From: Actinomycetota bacterium
Lineage (GTDB): Bacteria; Actinomycetota; Acidimicrobiia; Acidimicrobiales; JAMCPD01
Reading direction: 5' to 3'
DNA length: 64,000 nucleotides
NCBI GenBank assembly: GCA_023379935.1
Contig: JAMCPD010000018.1
Location: 4,567-68,566 of the forward strand
Shown: one piece after another, positions 11,680-59,643 of the stretch
How positions within the stretch are numbered: position 1 is the stretch's first letter
Layout of the letters: the number at the start of each line of letters is the position of its first letter
The notes under the pieces: model-generated
Told to the model about the DNA's origin: nothing
The model's input: the letters and a program-made list of their open reading frames with translations, nothing else
Databases searched by the model: none
Program-made: the position numbers and the translations under genes

Positions 11680-12966
11680 TTGGTGAAGATGGTTTTCGAA
11701 GATTTAGAGTACAGAGGACTCGTTTACCAGTTCAGCGATCCATTGTTGAAGAAACTACTGGACTTAGAACAACTGGTAGTTTATGCCGGTTTTGATCCTA
11801 CCTCCGATTCGTTACATGTTGGTCACCTGCTGCAGATCTGCAACTTGAGACGCTTGGCCGAGAAAGGACACAAGCCCATCGTTGTACTTGGCGGTGCAAC
11901 GGGAATGATAGGTGACCCCTCAGGTAAGACAGAAGAGAGGCCATTGATGGAACCTGAACTGTTGAACCATAACATCAAATCCCTACAGGTACAGTTTGAA
12001 CGGTTATTGGGAGAAAAATACCCGGTGAAAGGTGGCAATTCTCCGATCATAGTAAACAACTTGGACTGGATGAATGACCTGGGATTACTTGATTTCCTTC
12101 GAGATATCGGCAAACATTTTGGCATAGGGCAGATGATAGCGAAAGAGTCAGTCCGCTCCCGTATTGGAGAACATGCTGTCGGTATATCTTTTACCGAGTT
12201 TAGTTATATGTTGTTACAGGCATATGACTTCTTGCACCTGTATGATACCTTCGGTTGTCGTTTACAGATAGGTGCGTCTGATCAGTGGGGGAATATAACT
12301 ATGGGAATAGAGTTGATCGCAAACATGCGCAAAGCCACGGTTTTTGGTTTGACATCGCCGCTTATCGTAAAATCTGACGGTACTAAATTCGGTAAGACCG
12401 AGTCCGGCACTATTTGGCTTGATGAGAAAAAGACCAGCCCATATCGACTGTATCAGTTTTTTTACAATGCCTCCGACACTGAAGTTGCAACCTGGCTTCG
12501 TTATTTTACCGATCTGTCACATCAGGATCTAAGCGAATTAGATAATGAGGTCACAACAGCTCCAGCTGATAGGGTTGCTCAGCGTGAACTTGCCCGCCAA
12601 GTTACAACTATGGTCCATAACAAGCAGGCGGCCGACAGAGCAGAGTTTGCATCAAAGGCCCTCTTTGGAGGTGAGCTATCACTTTTGGACGAAAAAACAC
12701 TCTTAGATGTCTTTTCCGACGTGCCGTCAGTCGTATTTCCCAGAACTAACTTGGGTGAGATGACATTGGTGGATATGATGGTTGAATCCAATATCGCACC
12801 TTCTCGTGGGAGCGCGAGGCGAACTATTGACCAAGGAGGAGTCTATCTGAACAACTTACCAGTAAGGGACACCGAATTACGTATAGATACAAGCAGGCTG
12901 CTCTGCGATGCTTACTTAGTGTTGAAAAAGGGAAAGCGAGAGATTCGGTTACTGCGTTTTGCCTGA
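11680..12966 (+). CDS. tyrS: Tyrosine--tRNA ligase
   Basis: HVGHL (HIGH) and KFGKT (KMSKS-type) motifs, plus a C-terminal S4-like domain. The start could be ATG 11689. Confidence 0.9.
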   Translation: MVKMVFEDLEYRGLVYQFSDPLLKKLLDLEQLVVYAGFDPTSDSLHVGHLLQICNLRRLAEKGHKPIVVLGGATGMIGDPSGKTEERPLMEPELLNHNIKSLQVQFERLLGEKYPVKGGNSPIIVNNLDWMNDLGLLDFLRDIGKHFGIGQMIAKESVRSRIGEHAVGISFTEFSYMLLQAYDFLHLYDTFGCRLQIGASDQWGNITMGIELIANMRKATVFGLTSPLIVKSDGTKFGKTESGTIWLDEKKTSPYRLYQFFYNASDTEVATWLRYFTDLSHQDLSELDNEVTTAPADRVAQRELARQVTTMVHNKQAADRAEFASKALFGGELSLLDEKTLLDVFSDVPSVVFPRTNLGEMTLVDMMVESNIAPSRGSARRTIDQGGVYLNNLPVRDTELRIDTSRLLCDAYLVLKKGKREIRLLRFA

Positions 12967-13650
12967 GGTTATTAGAGTTTTATCTCCCGACTTTCCTTTG
13001 CGGACTTTATCAAGCAACTGTTCAAGGATTAACTGTGGATCTACTCCCTTGATCCAACAGATAATAGTGGCAGTAATTCCTACACAGTCAACAATTGTGA
13101 CAACTATAGGCGGGATGCCGTTTCCATAAGGTTCGGGCAGAGCATGTAGTGAGTAGAACAGTCCTTGTGCTCCAGCCCCCATGTCCCAAAAAAAAGCGGC
13201 AATGACGGAGCCATAAAAATAGTCTGAGTCTTTGAACCACAGCATCGGTCCCAACCATGCAAAGAAGAGTAATGACCAAAGGGGTCCAATGCGAAAAGAG
13301 TCGGGTATCAGCCCCGCGGCAGGGAAAAACAACATACCTATAAGAAACAGCAGAAAAGCAAGCTTGTTGATCGGCACACTTATAGCAGGTAAAAACGCTA
13401 TGCAAAGAAATATCCCGGCAGGTATTGCCAAAAACATGGTTGAAAATCCATGCCAAGACTGCGGTAACAGCAAGATCAGCAGATGTACGGTTGCAACTTT
13501 CGGAATGGCACCAAAAGTCTTGACAAGTGGAATGGTCTCGGAAAATAGAAGCCAAAGTATTAACGAAACCCCACAAAACGCTTTTACCGCTGCATTATTT
13601 ATGAAAGGGTGAGCATCAGGCAAACCGGTTGATTGTTGATTACTTTCCAT
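12949..13650 (-). CDS. Polytopic membrane protein, function unknown
   Basis: 233-aa ORF with multiple hydrophobic segments. Its 3' end overlaps the tyrS 3' end by 18 nt (convergent). Confidence 0.6.
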   Translation of the reverse strand: MESNQQSTGLPDAHPFINNAAVKAFCGVSLILWLLFSETIPLVKTFGAIPKVATVHLLILLLPQSWHGFSTMFLAIPAGIFLCIAFLPAISVPINKLAFLLFLIGMLFFPAAGLIPDSFRIGPLWSLLFFAWLGPMLWFKDSDYFYGSVIAAFFWDMGAGAQGLFYSLHALPEPYGNGIPPIVVTIVDCVGITATIICWIKGVDPQLILEQLLDKVRKGKSGDKTLITSGKTQ

Positions 13651-13947
13651 ATCTTCACGATAACATAGTTTGACCAGTTCTGTATTTTCTCAATCGCGCC
13701 GAGGATCCATTCATCCGGATCATCAGAGCACTTTAACGGCTGGTTGATCCCCAAGTGCCACTAACCGTGAGTGGTCGAGAACACTGCAGAGTGAGCTGGC
13801 TCCAATTTCTCAGCTGCCCCGGCAGACTCGACAACGCAATACAACCCGAGCTTCCCGGCCAACTTCTCCAGATTAGTAATTTCCCAGCCAGATATTCCCA
13901 CTCGTCGTCTTTTTGCCTGACTCACGGTTTAGGAAACAGATAGAGTT

Positions 13948-14020
13948 AGTCCGTCTAGTAGTGTCTAGTATCATTTTGCCTGTTCAGTCGGGGTGTCAGT
14001 CCGTCTAGTATCGTCTCGTA
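13948..14020. repeat. Phased direct repeats GTCT(A/C)GTA x4 (two pairs, 10 bp within a pair, 50 bp between pairs)
   Basis: gtctagta at 13953, 13963 and 14003; gtctcgta at 14013. The 13-mer agtccgtctagta occurs at 13948 and 13998. Confidence 0.8.
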
Positions 14021-14143: not shown

Positions 14144-14446
14144 ATGGCTAAAAAGAAGATAACACTCTATATAGATGAATCTGTAGCTAAGGCAGCCAAA
14201 GTGTCTGCTATTGCTACAAAGTGTACTGAAAGTGTCTTGGTTGAAAAAGCAATAATTTCGTATCTTGACACTAAGGACATCAAAACCGCTAAAGCCGATC
14301 TTATTAAATTGTTGGATGAAGTCGCTGTATCTTCAAATCTAGTCAATATATCAGAAGACGATATTATTGACCTAGCGGTAAAAGAGACCAAATTAGTCCG
14401 CAAGAATAGACAAGATAAACAACAATCAAAAGCAAACATTAGTTGA
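14144..14446 (+). CDS. Ribbon-helix-helix (CopG-like) antitoxin
   Basis: KITLYIDESVAKAAKVSAIATKCTESVLVEKAIISYL fits a strand-helix-helix pattern. Its stop overlaps the TTG of the downstream PIN frame (TTGA). Confidence 0.6.
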   Translation: MAKKKITLYIDESVAKAAKVSAIATKCTESVLVEKAIISYLDTKDIKTAKADLIKLLDEVAVSSNLVNISEDDIIDLAVKETKLVRKNRQDKQQSKANIS

Positions 14447-14870
14447 CCACTCCATTGCGAGCAATAGCTGACACTAATGTATTCGTTTCAGCTATTTGCT
14501 TTCCTTCGGGTGTTGGTGCCAAATTGCTTTCATTGGGATTGACGGCAGTTGGCCAATAGTTGCATCACCGATATTACTCAATGAACTAAGTGAGGTGCTT
14601 TTGAGAAATAAATTTCGTCGCTACCTTGGAGTAGATCAATGCCAAAGATATATTTCAGATATAGAAACCCTCGCAGAAGTTATCGACGACCCACTATCCG
14701 CTCCTCTTAGGGTTACTCGTGATCCTAAGGACGATTTCCTTATAGCTCTTGCTTACAAAGCATCTGTTGAGATTTTGATTTCTGGTGATAAAGATTTGCA
14801 AGTTCTAAAACTAAATAACTTATTAGTCCAATCTCCCAAAGAATTTCTGTCCGCCGTCAATTCTTCTTAA
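14443..14870 (+). pseudogene. PIN-domain toxin (PIN_3/TIGR00305-like) disrupted by a frameshift
   Basis: The N-terminal frame reads LRAIADTNVFVSAICFPSGVGAKLLSLGL and stops at TAG 14557. The remainder (SPILLNELSEVL...RDPKDDFLIALAYKASVEILISGDKDL) is in the ORF-track frame 14496..14870. Confidence 0.6.
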
Positions 14871-14871
14871 G

Positions 14872-15066
14872 CACCTGGTTAAAAACTATCTTCTTCCAGA
14901 TGAAAATAAGAGAACAGCTTATGCGTGTTTCAGAGAATTTGTTTTCCGCAATAACTACAGTTGGCAAACGGCCACGAGTGATGATACAGAAGTTGATGCT
15001 TCCATACTTATAAAAGCCTCAGGGCCTGAACTTGCCCATGGTGGTACAGCGCGCATCGGATCGTAG
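14872..15066 (+). pseudogene. Doc/Fic-family toxin C-terminal remnant
   Basis: My translation is HLVKNYLLPDENKRTAYACFREFVFRNNYSW...DDTEVDASILIKASG. This looks like a degenerate HxFxDGNKRTA motif plus a helper helix. There is no N-terminal half and no start. Confidence 0.4.
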
Positions 15067-15129
15067 GCTTCAGCCGAAAGTTATACTAGCATCACAGCGC
15101 CGTCGTAACTGTTTTGGTAACATTAGAGT

Positions 15130-16152
15130 ATGACCACCGACATGACGCTCTACCTTGTTGACCCTAGCAACTCAATGCACTCATCGCGAGCAGTCGGTCA
15201 CTACACCATCCGTAAAATCGAGTCCACCGGGCAGACGATCGATTCGATGAAGTGCCTCAGCATCGAGGTGGAGGCGCATGGACCACAGCAAGCACTCACG
15301 GTCGCCGATGAAAGGGGGCAACAGCATTCACTGACGGTCTCGTGGCTCCAGCTTACAGCCGTGATCTCGACGCGGACTACACCCCCCCACCCGGTGGGAC
15401 GAGTGCATATCGACGAGAAGGGCATGCTTCCCCTGGGACCCGGCAACGCCCGGTTCGGGACGTGGACGTGGATGTGGGAGGTCCGCGACGAGGATGTTGA
15501 GCTAGTGGATCAGGCACGGTCCAACCAGCCGAGCGCCCCGCTCTCCTTCCATGTGGACATTTCCGGCATTGCAAAGCTCATCGACGACAGCGGTAAGTTC
15601 CATGACTTCATTGCCGTTCGCAGCGCCGGTCCGCCGCTCCAAGTAGAGCTCTCGCACTGGGATCGACTCCTCCTGGCGCTCGGCTACACCGTGCCTCCAT
15701 CACAGGTGTCGCTCGTCACGCGAGGAACGCTGGAGCATCCAGCGTGGGCGGATGCGACGAAGCGGCTGGAGAACGCCCGCCTGCATCTGCGACACGGGGA
15801 GGGCTACGATGCTCTCCGGGAGTGCCTCAGCGCTCTCGAAGGGTTGGTCTCAGCGCCGTACAACACACCATCTTGGAAGTCCCACTTTACCTCCGTGCAA
15901 GACCAGAAAGCCGACGGCCTTGCCGAGCTGCTGTCAGGCTTCGCCACCTACTGCAACAAGATCGGGCACCACAGGGAGCGTCAGAACCGCGACGCCGCTG
16001 GCGACTTGCCCGCGATGCCCCTGGATCACTGGGAAGCTGATCTTGCTGTAGCAGTTGCCCAGTATCTACTAACCTACGCTTTTCGGCTCCGAAGCAACGG
16101 GGTGCTCACAACGCCGCCTCCACCAGTGACCTCCGCCGAGGGAAGCCAATGA
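15130..16152 (+). CDS. Hypothetical protein on a sharply GC-rich ~1-kb insert, with a helical C-terminal domain
   Basis: The 340-aa ORF has visibly GC-rich codons, and spurious overlapping ORFs appear in other frames. The composition change coincides with the ORF borders. Confidence 0.7.
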   Translation: MTTDMTLYLVDPSNSMHSSRAVGHYTIRKIESTGQTIDSMKCLSIEVEAHGPQQALTVADERGQQHSLTVSWLQLTAVISTRTTPPHPVGRVHIDEKGMLPLGPGNARFGTWTWMWEVRDEDVELVDQARSNQPSAPLSFHVDISGIAKLIDDSGKFHDFIAVRSAGPPLQVELSHWDRLLLALGYTVPPSQVSLVTRGTLEHPAWADATKRLENARLHLRHGEGYDALRECLSALEGLVSAPYNTPSWKSHFTSVQDQKADGLAELLSGFATYCNKIGHHRERQNRDAAGDLPAMPLDHWEADLAVAVAQYLLTYAFRLRSNGVLTTPPPPVTSAEGSQ

Positions 16153-16221
16153 ACAGGTCAGGCAACAAAACATGGACATAGAACTAAAGGGGTGAACAGT
16201 TGCAAATTTTAACTTAACGAA

Positions 16222-58362: not shown

Positions 58363-59643
58363 ATGAAACCGTTTAAGTTTGTGCATACGGCTGACTTACA
58401 TCTGGGTAGTCCTTTTATTGGGATTGGGCAGAAGATAAACGAGGACATTTCCAAAACACTGCGCAACGCTACATTTGATGCTTTTGAAAAGATAGTCAAT
58501 ATTACGATAGAGGAAAAGGCTAATTTTCTCCTTATTGCCGGAGATATTTACGACAGTGATAAGCCAAATTTGAAAGCACAACTTTTTTTTCATGAACAAC
58601 TGCTACGACTGGCAAACGCCGATATTGACAGCTTCATAGTACATGGTAACCATGATCCTCTAGACAGTAAGTTTATCAACGGACTGGAGCAATCAGATCA
58701 TATCCATGAGTTTGGCCGAGAGGTGGAGCTACAACAAAGTAGTGACCAAAATGGTGATCCGATTGCGAATATATACGGAATAAGTCATCCGACAAAAGGC
58801 GTTAGAGAAAACTTGGCAAAAAAATTTAATCGCAGTGATAATCCCGGCGAATGTTTTGCTATTGGTTTGCTTCACTGCAATTTAGGTACTAATACAGGAC
58901 ATGATAACTATGCCCCATGTAACATCGGTGATCTTAAAAATGCAAACATGGACTACTGGGCATTGGGACATATTCATAAAAGCGAAATCCTCAACAGCCA
59001 ATCTCCTCTTGTGATATACCCGGGAACTCCTCAGGCCTTGCACTCAAAAGAACAGGGTAGCCATGGTTGCTATGTTGTTAATGTTGATCTTGAGGGGCGA
59101 CCAAGCCCATCGTTTGTCGCCACTGATGTGGTCAGATGGGAAAAGATATCAGTTTCAATTGATCAGCTTGGAAGTGAAGGTGAAGTTATTTCGGCACTGG
59201 AAACGGCTTGTGAGGACCTGCGGGCAAATGGGGATGATCGCAATGTAATAGGGGAGATAACTCTTGAAGGTCGTGGATATGTACACAAGTTTGTTGCAGA
59301 TTTTAATAAAAGATCTGAACTGAAGGATTCCCTAAACGAAACAGAGGGCAGTAAAAGCCCCTTCGTTTGGATCACCAGCATTGACATACAAACAGGTTTG
59401 CCGTGGGATATTGACACGCTTAGATCTCGTGAGGATTTTGTAGGCGACTTGTTATCTATTGTTGATTCACCGAACACCTTAGCCTCTTTACGAAGTGAGA
59501 TACAACCTGTGTTGGATAAGTGGGGGAAGTATGATATCAAACAGCCGACCGACGATGAGCTTAAAAAATGGCTAACACAAGCACGGGATCTTTTACTTAC
59601 ATATTTGGAAGATAACGTCGAGGAGAATACCGATGCGTATTGA
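58363..59643 (+). CDS. Metallophosphoesterase DNA-repair exonuclease (SbcD/YhaO-like)
   Basis: VHTADLHLGSPF, AGDIYDS, GNHD and GHIH. Confidence 0.8.
   Translation: MKPFKFVHTADLHLGSPFIGIGQKINEDISKTLRNATFDAFEKIVNITIEEKANFLLIAGDIYDSDKPNLKAQLFFHEQLLRLANADIDSFIVHGNHDPLDSKFINGLEQSDHIHEFGREVELQQSSDQNGDPIANIYGISHPTKGVRENLAKKFNRSDNPGECFAIGLLHCNLGTNTGHDNYAPCNIGDLKNANMDYWALGHIHKSEILNSQSPLVIYPGTPQALHSKEQGSHGCYVVNVDLEGRPSPSFVATDVVRWEKISVSIDQLGSEGEVISALETACEDLRANGDDRNVIGEITLEGRGYVHKFVADFNKRSELKDSLNETEGSKSPFVWITSIDIQTGLPWDIDTLRSREDFVGDLLSIVDSPNTLASLRSEIQPVLDKWGKYDIKQPTDDELKKWLTQARDLLLTYLEDNVEENTDAY

What the first reader, a model, noticed from the sequence alone, without database searches (positions are those of the whole stretch)
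15130..16152. Sharply GC-rich 1-kb orphan gene embedded among toxin-antitoxin modules: candidate novel defence/abortive-infection gene
The 340-codon ORF is far more GC-rich than everything around it, with strongly G/C-ending codons. It spawns the false overlapping ORFs typical of high-GC DNA (15377..15574, 15744..16040, 15752..16051). The compositional step coincides almost exactly with its start and stop. The gene therefore looks like a single foreign cassette dropped between a Doc remnant and vapBC. I recognise no family for the N-terminal ~200 aa. The C-terminal ~130 aa is helical. It contains RLHLRH (an Rx4H pattern, 15778-15795) and NKIGHH followed by an amphipathic helix (EADLAVAVAQYLLTYAF). 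This is reminiscent of HEPN/Abi_C-type abortive-infection C-terminal domains, but that is a weak impression by eye. Location in a TA cluster fits the usual guilt-by-association pattern for defence genes.
Basis: partly seen in the sequence, partly recalled or inferred. Interest (0 to 1): 0.72.

Follow-up and report, generated by a model that had tools for sequence, protein, structure and literature searches.

The report
Foreign orphan gene, probable defence protein
A 1.1-kb high-GC gene with its own promoter was recently transferred into a low-GC actinobacterial genome; it belongs to a rare, unnamed protein family that sits almost always in defence islands or mobile elements, and its tail end weakly resembles an abortive-infection RNase domain that lacks the usual catalytic arginine.

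Summary
ORF 15130-16152 (340 aa) has GC 0.615 and GC3 0.72 in a 0.46-GC window (z = 4.5). Homology to donor-type loci defines a 1,114-bp insert, 15070-16183, carrying only a promoter, the gene and 31 nt of spacer. The protein matches no Pfam, NCBIfam, PADLOC, PHROG or PDB entry. It belongs to a rare family (about 130 clusters at 50% identity), all from uncultured bacteria, mostly high-GC Actinomycetota. It is under purifying selection. It has a new β-rich N-domain and a more conserved helical C-domain.

In 19 distinct loci the neighbours are almost all defence or mobile-element genes, and 9 loci have a DNA methyltransferase within three genes. All 20 loci tested have a TAnnnT box at -12 to -7 of the start codon, which indicates a leaderless single-gene unit.

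The HEPN/Abi_C idea gets only suggestive support: hhalign P = 0.0067, HEPN entries among non-significant fold hits, and the motif at the helix-3 end. The canonical Rx4-6H motif is not intact.

Best reading: a single-gene Abi-like defence protein with a divergent, arginine-less HEPN-like effector. The function is inferred, not shown.

The parts
15070..16183 (+). Horizontally acquired segment: promoter region, ORF and 31 nt of 3' spacer
   Evidence: blastn gives 84.5% identity to L027 over window 15070-16183 and 87.6% to L004-L007 over 15117-16183. GC segmentation gives 15015-16163. No repeats or IS ends flank it.
15115..15123 (+). Extended -10-like promoter element TGGTAACAT (hexamer TAACAT at 15118-15123), ending 6 nt before the ATG. 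This implies a leaderless mRNA.
   Evidence: TAnnnT lies at -12 to -7 of the start codon in 20 of 20 distinct family loci, against a background of 0.0043 per position, and there is no Shine-Dalgarno sequence. Function is inferred from the known actinobacterial leaderless-promoter layout. The sigma-70 scan found no canonical -35/-10 pair.
15130..16152 (+). 340-aa ORF, identical to MCL4449099.1 (hypothetical protein, Actinomycetota MAG)
   Evidence: There are 73 close homologues and 128 representative clusters. dN/dS is 0.15-0.33.
15130..15687 (+). N-terminal β-rich domain (residues 1 to about 186) with no detectable relatives. It is the faster-evolving half and the proposed recognition or regulatory module.
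   Evidence: AF2 model with pLDDT mostly 81-96 and long antiparallel strands. Fold searches gave only weak Ig-like β-sandwich hints. dN/dS is 0.31-0.36, against 0.06-0.15 for the C-domain among close relatives.
15715..16107 (+). C-terminal helical domain (residues about 196-326), a divergent HEPN/Abi_C-like four-helix core with an insert
   Evidence: Domain model with pLDDT 80 and pTM 0.73. HEPN entries 1o3u, 2q00, 3c18, 1wol and 4nqf are among the top 10 fold hits, none significant. hhalign against the Abi_C family gives P = 0.0067 and exceeds 81 of 81 nulls.
15955..15975 (+). NKIGHHR motif (N276...H281, R282) at the end of the long helix 258-279. H281 is invariant family-wide.
   Evidence: H281 is present in 73 of 73 sequences and N276 in 62 of 73. 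An Arg occurs at position 280 or 282 in 57 of 74, with both present in only 2. [quoted passage not shown]
16018..16038 (+). PLDHWEA motif starting the last helix. E302 is present in 71 of 74 sequences.
15750..15775 (+). 26-bp mosaic patch that differs from the otherwise near-identical copy in L013 (aa 207-216)
   Evidence: 10 of the roughly 17 differences cluster here, while the flanks are about 100% identical.

Best explanation
The gene encodes a stand-alone, two-domain, abortive-infection-type defence protein from a previously undescribed family.

Proposed mechanism (inferred). The fast-evolving N-terminal β-rich domain senses an invader component, or the inactivation of a co-resident restriction-modification system, and holds the C-terminal domain in check. 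The conserved C-terminal domain is a highly divergent HEPN/AbiJ(Abi_C)-like helical bundle and acts as the effector, most likely an RNase. Its active centre is built around the invariant H281. The canonical HEPN arginine is missing and may be replaced by a neighbouring Arg (position 280 or 282) and/or by R217, K260 or R319.

Gene organisation. The gene is a self-sufficient unit transcribed as a leaderless mRNA from a -10 box that abuts the start codon. It travels with R-M operons and other defence genes on conjugative or integrative elements of high-GC Actinomycetota.

In this window. A 1,114-bp promoter-plus-gene piece was cut out of a Type III R-M-linked locus and recently inserted into a decaying toxin-antitoxin island of a 46%-GC actinobacterial genome.

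Shown: foreign origin, insert limits, family conservation and selection, domain layout, conserved promoter, neighbourhoods.
Inferred: defence role, sensor/effector split, RNase chemistry.
For: Foreign origin and unit structure:
- GC 0.615 and GC3 0.72 against 0.39-0.52 and 0.37-0.50 for other window ORFs.
- Homologues match their own 0.54-0.68 GC loci.
- Homology is limited to 15070-16183.
- The donor-type loci L004 and L027 continue directly into Type III mod and res.

Real, maintained protein:
- Full-length conservation in 73 close homologues and 128 representative clusters.
- dN/dS is 0.15-0.33. The C-domain (0.06-0.15) is more constrained than the N-domain (0.31-0.36).
- Confident AF2 models.

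Context in 19 distinct loci:
- A DNA methyltransferase lies within ±3 genes in 9 loci. In 5 of these it lies downstream on the same strand: directly adjacent in L003, L004 and L027, and after one intervening gene in L021 and L023/24.
- Other neighbours are SIR2 with Ymh, CBASS, Mrr with OLD, TIR-WD40 with Schlafen, HepT/MNT, Abi_C, TA modules, ArdC, relaxases or T4SS genes, and integrases.

HEPN-like C-domain:
- hhalign against an Abi_C family covers 108 co-linear columns with score 23.6 and P = 0.0067. The reversed template scores 16.0 and 80 shuffled templates reach at most 21.9.
- 5 of the top 10 fold hits are HEPN entries, including 2q00, an arginine-less PaREP1 HEPN.
- The only NCBIfam hit (E = 0.23) is to the STM4504/CBY_0614 family, at the start of our C-domain (residues 200-251) and just past the ~165-residue AbiJ-NTD4 span that PMC3710099 gives for CBY_0614; that paper describes CBY_0614 as AbiJ-NTD4 fused to an AbiJ HEPN domain.
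- The conserved motif sits at the helix-3 end, as in HEPN.
- PMC3710099 documents HEPN families with 'conserved H but lacks R', and frequent embedding of AbiJ, Ymh and DUF4145 HEPN genes in R-M operons.

Autonomy: TAnnnT at -12 to -7 in 20 of 20 loci.
Against: - No statistically secure homology to any HEPN family. The hhalign probability is 5.7%, the Foldseek best E is 0.34, single-sequence comparisons give 1.2% or less, and PDB and 5.8-billion-protein profile searches find only family members.
- The canonical Rx4-6H dyad is not intact. The hhalign register and the by-eye register disagree on whether H281 corresponds to the HEPN His or to the HEPN Arg.
- No PADLOC hit.
- Guilt by association cannot separate a defence gene from an anti-defence gene or other mobile-element cargo.
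- Several loci place the gene next to ArdC and SSB, which are typical of leading regions that carry anti-defence genes.
- In the window the gene is alone, without R-M partners.
- There is no experimental evidence of any kind.
Confidence: 0.45

Rival explanations
1. It is an anti-defence (for example anti-restriction) or establishment gene of conjugative or integrative elements. It would be expressed early from its own leaderless promoter on entering a new host, and would bind or neutralise host immunity proteins. The HEPN-like domain would be a non-catalytic binding or decoy module.
For: - The gene lies between SSB and ArdC in L019, next to ArdC in L027 and L036, and between T4SS genes and the relaxase in L008, L009 and L003.
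- The catalytic Arg of HEPN is missing.
- The gene is a self-contained promoter-plus-gene unit.
- 12 of 33 members give a weak, sub-threshold Barstar (RNase inhibitor) match over GEDYDALxxCL.
Against: - In 5 loci a DNA methyltransferase gene lies downstream on the same strand: directly adjacent (Type III mod, L003, L004, L027) or after one intervening gene (L021, L023/24). Inhibiting an R-M system in cis makes little sense.
- A pI of 5.4-6.2 is not that of a DNA mimic.
- The family is absent from 50,697 phage genomes, IMG/VR and 72,556 plasmids.
- Invariant His, Glu and Arg residues with a strongly constrained C-domain look more like an enzyme.
- The Barstar hits are below threshold, and the domain is all-helical, unlike barstar.
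Confidence: 0.2
2. It is an accessory or guard subunit of R-M-type systems with no independent activity. It would monitor or regulate the adjacent methyltransferase/restriction complex, in the way PrrC is linked to EcoprrI. The window copy, separated from mod and res, would then be a non-functional hitchhiker that has not yet decayed.
For: - A methyltransferase lies within ±3 genes in 9 of 19 loci, with a 46-bp gap to Type III mod in L003, L004 and L027.
- The window's right breakpoint lies inside the gene-mod spacer.
- PMC3710099 describes HEPN proteins coupled to R-M operons.
Against: - The linked R-M systems are of unrelated types (I, II, III and DUF1156/HmaB-like), and about half of the loci have none nearby (L008, L019, L025, L026, L028, L038). 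A specific physical partnership is therefore unlikely.
- The gene always has its own promoter.
- Both sampled copies of this insertion, the window (exact sequence recorded under two NCBI accessions) and the L013 contig, are intact and differ by 8 synonymous and 8 non-synonymous changes, dN/dS 0.33.
Confidence: 0.2
3. It is mobile-element cargo unrelated to immunity, for example a regulatory, stress or maintenance protein. Its defence-island neighbours would simply reflect that all accessory genes accumulate in the same variable regions.
For: - No homology-based functional assignment is possible.
- The N-domain is novel.
- Some loci, such as L025, L028 and L038, show mostly unannotated small ORFs.
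Against: - The density and diversity of bona fide defence genes immediately adjacent is high across unrelated loci.
- There are suggestive HEPN signals.
- No housekeeping context was seen in any locus.
Confidence: 0.15

Closest known systems
AbiJ-type abortive-infection proteins (Pfam Abi_C PF14355; NCBIfam STM4504/CBY_0614 family, which is AbiJ-NTD4 plus an AbiJ HEPN domain, PMC3710099)
   Same: - Two-domain layout: a variable N-terminal domain of about 160-190 aa and a C-terminal helical domain of about 130 aa.
[quoted passage not shown]
- Solo genes that are often embedded in or next to R-M operons and defence islands.
- The best, though weak, profile-profile match is to this family.
   Different: - No significant sequence or fold match.
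- The canonical Arg of RNxxxxH is Leu or Cys.
- The loop after the motif is longer.
- The N-domain is β-rich and unrelated to the described AbiJ-NTD1-5 as far as could be tested.
- No member has been tested experimentally.
Arginine-less HEPN families: PaREP1/8 HEPN-T (PDB 2q00) and the c2405 family (PMC3710099)
   Same: The His is conserved while the motif Arg is absent. Other conserved basic residues could substitute for it. 2q00 is the fourth-ranked fold hit, with probability 0.77 and target-normalised TM 0.50.
   Different: PaREP1/8 is archaeal and linked to MNT. c2405 is fused to AbiTii. There is no detectable sequence similarity to either. The Foldseek E-value of 0.85 is not significant.
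Ymh / Hypoth_Ymh (PF09509) and PrrC/RloC-type R-M-linked HEPN proteins
   Same: Genomic habit: a HEPN protein in or beside Type I or Type III R-M operons. A true Ymh gene lies in the same island in L004. The '...RNPDAHEQFKPLDEEE...' layout resembles '...CNKIGHHR...PLDHWE...' by eye.
   Different: Ymh keeps Rx4H. The hhalign probability is 0.1%. PrrC and RloC have ABC-ATPase N-domains and a known trigger mechanism, and nothing comparable is seen here.

Membership tests
HEPN superfamily (as defined in PMC3710099) | [quoted passage not shown] | tested here: inconclusive
   The AF2 C-domain model is all-helical. The candidate core is helices 204-221, 225-237, 258-279 and 300-322, with an insert at 238-257. 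Foldseek puts the HEPN entries 1o3u, 2q00, 3c18, 1wol and 4nqf in the top 10, but the best E is 0.34 and the target-normalised TM is at most 0.53. Model coordinates could not be inspected.
HEPN superfamily (as defined in PMC3710099) | [quoted passage not shown] | tested here: not met
The position and the polar Asn fit: N276 is present in 62 of 73 sequences, H281 in 73 of 73, and the motif lies at the end of helix 258-279. However, the residue before N276 is Leu in 50 sequences, Cys in 9, and never Arg. An Arg flanks H281 at position 280 or 282 in 57 of 74 sequences, so an arginine-less variant like PaREP1/8 or c2405 remains possible.
HEPN superfamily (as defined in PMC3710099) | Second conserved acidic residue in helix-2, typically within Ex3[KR] | tested here: inconclusive
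   Acidic E237 (E in 50 and D in 11 of 74) ends helix 225-237, and E224 lies in the GE(D)Y turn. No Ex3[KR] pattern is conserved.
HEPN superfamily (as defined in PMC3710099) | Metal-independent RNase activity that depends on the motif His and Arg | not testable with these tools
   This requires biochemistry.
Abi_C / AbiJ (Pfam PF14355) | Significant match to the family profile | tested here: not met
   No Pfam hit even at E <= 10 in 33 close and 74 divergent members. hhalign against a 112-sequence Abi_C alignment gives E = 0.0067 and probability 5.7%. This is above all 81 nulls but below any accepted threshold.
Known anti-phage defence systems (PADLOC-DB v2.0.0) | Match to any defence-protein model | tested here: not met
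   0 families at E <= 10.
Barstar (PF01337) RNase-inhibitor family | Profile match above the gathering score, and an α/β barstar fold | tested here: not met
   12 of 33 members give sub-threshold hits (best E = 0.0041, 17.5 bits against a cut-off of 23.4), centred on GEDYDALxxCL. The modelled domain has no β-sheet.
Leaderless actinobacterial transcription unit | A -10 hexamer (TANNNT) ending about 6-7 nt upstream of the start codon, with no Shine-Dalgarno sequence | tested here: met
   20 of 20 distinct loci have it, against a background of 0.0043 per position. The window has TGGTAACAT, then 6 nt, then ATG. The transcription start itself was not measured.

The most novel reading that the evidence does not exclude
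The family is a new kind of single-gene immune effector. A HEPN-derived nuclease has moved its catalytic arginine next to the invariant histidine (HHR or RHP in place of Rx4-6H). It is fused to a previously unseen β-sandwich sensor and packaged as a leaderless one-gene cassette that moves between R-M islands and can be captured on its own by distant hosts. It may act as a guard that fires when the neighbouring R-M system is disabled.
Probability: 0.2. Interest if true: 0.7.

Novelty: new variant of a known kind. Interest (0 to 1): 0.5.

Why it matters
If the family is a working defence protein, it would add an uncharacterised single-gene system from Actinomycetota, a phylum under-represented in defence catalogues. 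None of the four libraries scanned here (Pfam, NCBIfam, PADLOC-DB v2.0.0, PHROGs) recognises it. It would also give a third, independent example of a HEPN-type domain that works without the canonical arginine, which bears on how that active site evolves.

The locus also shows a clean case of a 1.1-kb promoter-plus-gene unit excised from an R-M operon and fixed in a genome of very different base composition. That is a small but clear illustration of how defence islands exchange single genes.

None of this is yet shown experimentally. As it stands, this is a well-supported candidate and not a discovery.

Tried and rejected
- Whole-protein fold searches against PDB and BFVD gave only noise, with TM at most 0.28.
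- Profile searches of PDB sequences with A1, A4 and A5 hit nothing, or only designed helical bundles and myoglobin.
- A C-domain profile search of 5.8 billion proteins found only family members, with no bridging or alternative architectures.
- Single-sequence hhalign against Abi_C, Ymh, HepT and the small adjacent partners gave probabilities of 1.2% or less.
- The zf-C2H2_10 hits (17 of 33 members) are an artefact of the C-x4-HH string. The Cys is Leu in most of the wider family.
- The Barstar and DUF6415 hits are below threshold.
- A DNA-mimic anti-restriction protein is unlikely, given a pI of 5.4-6.2.
- A conserved two-gene system was rejected. The directly adjacent genes are unrelated across loci, except L008-142aa ~ L019-199aa ~ L036-200aa and the L001/L023 methyltransferases.
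- Transposon, integron or att-type mobility is not supported: no flanking repeats and no tRNA or Rfam element nearby.
- DGR-type diversification of the 26-bp patch is unlikely, because the substitutions are not adenine-specific.
- The metagenome scan with the divergent alignment A4 failed for lack of a conserved stretch.
- There were no hits in plasmids, phages or IMG/VR.
Full report
**1.

Its GC is 0.615 and its GC3 is 0.721. The other 28 ORFs of 200 aa or more in the window have GC 0.39-0.52 and GC3 0.37-0.50. The 300-nt profile reads 0.60-0.64 inside the gene and 0.35-0.47 around it.

A maximum-likelihood two-breakpoint fit places the GC-rich block at 15015-16163 (0.606 against 0.388). The segment lies 4.5 SD above every other 1,114-bp window of the 64 kb. 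The right edge is abrupt. The left edge rises over about 150 nt.

**2. It is a recent single-gene transfer, and its limits can be defined.**

The exact protein is on record as MCL4449099.1 / MCL6104202.1, a 'hypothetical protein' from uncultured Actinomycetota MAGs. A Logan contig (L013) carries the same locus with practically identical flanks.

In other loci the homologues sit in DNA of GC 0.54-0.68 and match it. Only the window and L013 show a mismatch.

DNA similarity to the nearest high-GC relatives covers only the gene and its immediate borders. It is 87.6% over 15117-16183 with L004-L007 and 84.5% over 15070-16183 with L027. In those loci the next gene, 46 bp downstream, is a Type III R-M mod followed by res. 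The window keeps only 31 nt of that spacer.

So a 1,114-bp promoter-plus-gene unit was taken out of an R-M-linked locus. No direct or inverted repeats, IS ends, tRNA or Rfam elements mark the junctions. The mechanism of insertion is unexplained.

**3. The landing site is a decaying toxin-antitoxin island.**

- Downstream lies an intact vapBC pair: PIN at E = 1e-11 and VapB at E = 2.7e-5.
- Upstream there is an RHH-like ORF and a PIN_3 gene that is frameshifted. Stitching the two frames restores a match to the whole PIN_3 profile, positions 1-115, E = 8.8e-13.
It has no Pfam support at E <= 0.1, so it remains only a plausible reading.

**4. The protein belongs to a rare, unnamed but well-conserved family.**

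- No Pfam, NCBIfam, PADLOC or PHROG model matches, and no PDB sequence matches.
- The 5.8-billion-protein collection holds 73 close homologues of 40-98% identity, nearly all 317-361 aa and full length.
- An exhaustive phmmer scan of 1.84 billion cluster representatives finds 128.
- Among 185,579 species-representative genomes only five carry it, all MAGs: two Actinomycetes, a Binatia, a Dormibacterota and an Opitutaceae bin.
- It is absent from 72,556 plasmids, 50,697 phage genomes and IMG/VR.
- dN/dS against relatives is 0.15-0.33. Among the closer relatives the C-terminal half is far more constrained (0.06-0.15) than the N-terminal half (0.31-0.36).

**5. Anatomy.**

AlphaFold2 with the family alignment gives a confident model (mean pLDDT 83) with two domains. 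The first is a β-rich N-domain of residues 1 to about 186, with long antiparallel strands. The second is an all-helical C-domain of residues about 196-326. Modelled alone, the C-domain gives pLDDT 80 and pTM 0.73.

In a 74-sequence divergent alignment the absolutely or nearly invariant residues are G90, W116, W177, W206, A216, G223, A228, Y244, W249, H281, E302 and R319. K260, N276 and R217 are also strongly conserved.

The most conspicuous motif is ...TY[L/C]NK[IV]GHH[R] at the C-terminal end of the long helix 258-279. It is followed by a 10-15-residue loop and then PLDHWEAEL at the start of the last helix.

The N-domain has no detectable relative. Fold searches gave only weak Ig-like β-sandwich hints.

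**6. Is the C-domain HEPN/Abi_C-like?**

The HEPN reference analysis (PMC3710099) defines the domain by these features:
- a four-helix up-down bundle with frequent helix-2/helix-3 inserts;
- an Rx4-6H motif at the end of helix-3 running into the loop to helix-4;
- a polar residue (N, D or H) after the R;
- often an acidic residue in helix-2.

Measured against this, the location of NK[IV]GHH, the conserved Asn and the invariant His all fit. So do the insert at 238-257 and an acidic residue (E237) at the end of helix 225-237. The Arg does not fit. The residue before N276 is Leu in 50 sequences or Cys in 9, and never Arg.

An Arg flanks H281 at position 280 or 282 in 57 of 74 sequences, and the two positions are almost mutually exclusive. 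This hints at a relocated basic residue. The same paper documents two HEPN families (PaREP1/8 with PDB 2q00, and c2405) that 'lack R but H is conserved'.

Statistical evidence for homology is only suggestive:
- Foldseek with the C-domain model gives no significant hit (best E = 0.34). Even so, five of the ten best are HEPN entries: 1o3u, 2q00, 3c18, 1wol and 4nqf.
- The only NCBIfam hit (E = 0.23) is to the STM4504/CBY_0614 family. It falls at the start of our C-domain (residues 200-251, profile 152-203 of 281), just beyond the ~165-residue AbiJ-NTD4 span that the paper gives for CBY_0614. The paper describes CBY_0614 as AbiJ-NTD4 fused to an AbiJ HEPN domain.
- hhalign of the C-domain profile against a 112-sequence alignment of genuine Abi_C proteins gives a co-linear alignment of 108 columns across all core helices. 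The alignment was built from a neighbour in L024. The score is 23.6 and the pairwise P is 0.0067.
- That score exceeds the reversed template (16.0) and all 80 shuffled templates (mean about 13, maximum 21.9). However, hhalign's own probability is 5.7%.
- The hhalign register puts H281 on the HEPN Arg, whereas my by-eye register puts N276 on the HEPN Asn.

I therefore treat 'HEPN-like' as the best available structural hypothesis. Membership is not demonstrated.

**7. Genomic company.**

From 19 distinct loci:

*A DNA methyltransferase within three genes (9 loci):*

| Locus | Methyltransferase context |
|---|---|
| L003, L004, L027 | Type III mod and res directly downstream on the same strand |
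| L010, L021, L039 | Type I hsdMSR |
| L014 | Type II MTase, E = 1e-114 |
| L001, L023/24 | DUF1156/HmaB/PglX-like MTases |

- L016 and L018 have HsdR or HsdS a few genes away.

*Other defence neighbours:*
- SIR2_2 with Hypoth_Ymh (L004) and SIR2_2 (L001).
- A CBASS operon (L019).
- Mrr with an OLD-family ATPase and PemK/PhD (L010).
- HepT/MNT and Abi_C (L023, L024).
- A TIR-WD40 protein, a Schlafen/AlbA protein and a GHKL ATPase (L026), and a GHKL ATPase (L017).

*Mobile-element markers:*
- TrwC relaxases and T4SS genes (L003, L008).
- SSB, ArdC and a relaxase (L019).
- Prim-Pol, ArdC and a dNMP kinase (L027).
- ArdC (L036).
- Integrases on both sides (L025).
- IS transposases (L004-L006).

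No locus showed a housekeeping context for the gene. The directly adjacent small genes are not conserved across loci, apart from a 142-200-aa protein in L008, L019 and L036. So the family is not part of a fixed multi-gene system.

**8. The gene is an autonomous, leaderless unit.**

In all 20 distinct loci with a well-defined start codon, a TAnnnT hexamer occupies exactly -12 to -7 relative to the first base of the ATG or GTG. The background frequency is 0.0043 per position, and no Shine-Dalgarno sequence is present. This is the established layout of leaderless genes in Actinomycetota. That interpretation rests on my own knowledge of mycobacterial and streptomycete transcriptomics, not on a measurement here.

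The window retains it as TGGTAACAT, then 6 nt, then ATG (15115-15132). So the transferred piece probably remains expressible.

**9. Interpretation.**

The best-supported reading (confidence about 0.45) is a single-gene, Abi-type defence protein. A variable N-terminal recognition or autoinhibitory domain is fused to a conserved, divergent, arginine-less HEPN-like effector. The gene is carried in defence islands on actinobacterial mobile elements and is often coupled to R-M operons.

This matches the general model that PMC3710099 proposes for AbiJ-like proteins, with N-terminal domains as sensors or antitoxins and HEPN as a suicidal RNase. It also matches that paper's observation that HEPN genes embed in R-M operons.

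The rivals are:
- an anti-defence or establishment gene of conjugative elements (0.2);
- a dependent guard or accessory of R-M systems, orphaned in this window (0.2);
- unrelated mobile-element cargo (0.15).

The data do not separate these decisively. Co-orientation directly upstream of R-M operons, the absence from phages, the non-acidic composition and the enzyme-like conservation pattern all argue against the anti-defence reading. The variety of R-M types, and the loci without any R-M, argue against a specific partnership.

**10. Novelty and verdict.**

The family is undescribed in the four libraries and the literature searched here. If the HEPN link holds, it is a new variant of a known kind: an Abi/HEPN-type effector with a non-canonical active site and a novel N-domain. 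It is not a categorically new system.

The foreign-cassette and defence-context inferences are supported and extended. The HEPN/Abi_C impression is weakly supported in general, but it is wrong in the specific motif proposed. Interest is moderate: this is a good candidate for experimental testing, and no function has yet been shown.

Noticed in passing
window 14380-14870: The PIN_3 toxin gene upstream is a frameshifted pseudogene. Its N-terminal part (AIADTNVFVSAI...) is in a different frame from ORF 14496-14870. Stitching the two frames restores a match to the full PIN_3 profile, positions 1-115, E = 8.8e-13. The RHH-like partner at 14144-14446 looks intact.
   Followed up: partly
window 14815-15066: A start-less Doc/Fic-like frame (...LLPDENKRTAYACFREF...) ends at 15066, immediately before the left junction of the insert at 15070. 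It has no Pfam hit at E <= 0.1, and the His of the Fic motif appears to be replaced.
   Followed up: partly
window 15750-15775 vs L013 cols 968-993: The window and a near-identical metagenomic copy differ mainly in one 26-bp patch (aa 207-216, ADATKRLENA against AAATGALKNA), while their flanks are about 100% identical. It looks like a short gene-conversion tract. The substitutions are not adenine-specific, so it is not DGR-like.
   Followed up: no
L041:304-654: A 116-aa fragment matching only residues 246-335 of the family lies near the end of a 119-kb contig of GC 0.37. This may be a second, degraded, capture by a low-GC host.
   Followed up: no
L008:9162-9590, L019:9042-9641, L036:631-1233: In three conjugative-element loci the gene is followed by a related small protein of 142-200 aa. 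The L008 version has a canonical RNLAAH (Rx4H) motif and weak DUF4145/HepT-like_2/Ymh hits. The L019 and L036 versions have an N-terminal hydrophobic segment and lack the His.
   Followed up: partly
upstream of the family gene in L003, L004, L008, L014, L023, L024, L029: A second conserved element, GTCAC(A/G)CC, lies about 10 nt upstream of the -10 box in many loci and may be an operator. It is not retained in the window or in L027, which instead share CGTCGTA(A)CTGTTTTGG.
   Followed up: no
L017:6932-8899 and L026:690-2687: In two distant loci a GHKL/HATPase_c-type protein of about 660 aa lies just upstream of the family gene. Neither matches a PADLOC model. Their relatedness to each other was not tested.
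   Followed up: no
window 58363-62371: Two long ORFs near the 3' end of the window have distinctly lower GC (0.39-0.42, GC3 about 0.37) than the rest (about 0.46-0.49). This may be another acquired segment, of the opposite composition.
   Followed up: no
window 13700-14000: There is a small GC bump (0.51) in the intergenic stretch between the 233-aa membrane-protein ORF (12949-13650, minus strand, no Pfam hit) and the RHH gene. No Rfam or tRNA match explains it.
   Followed up: partly
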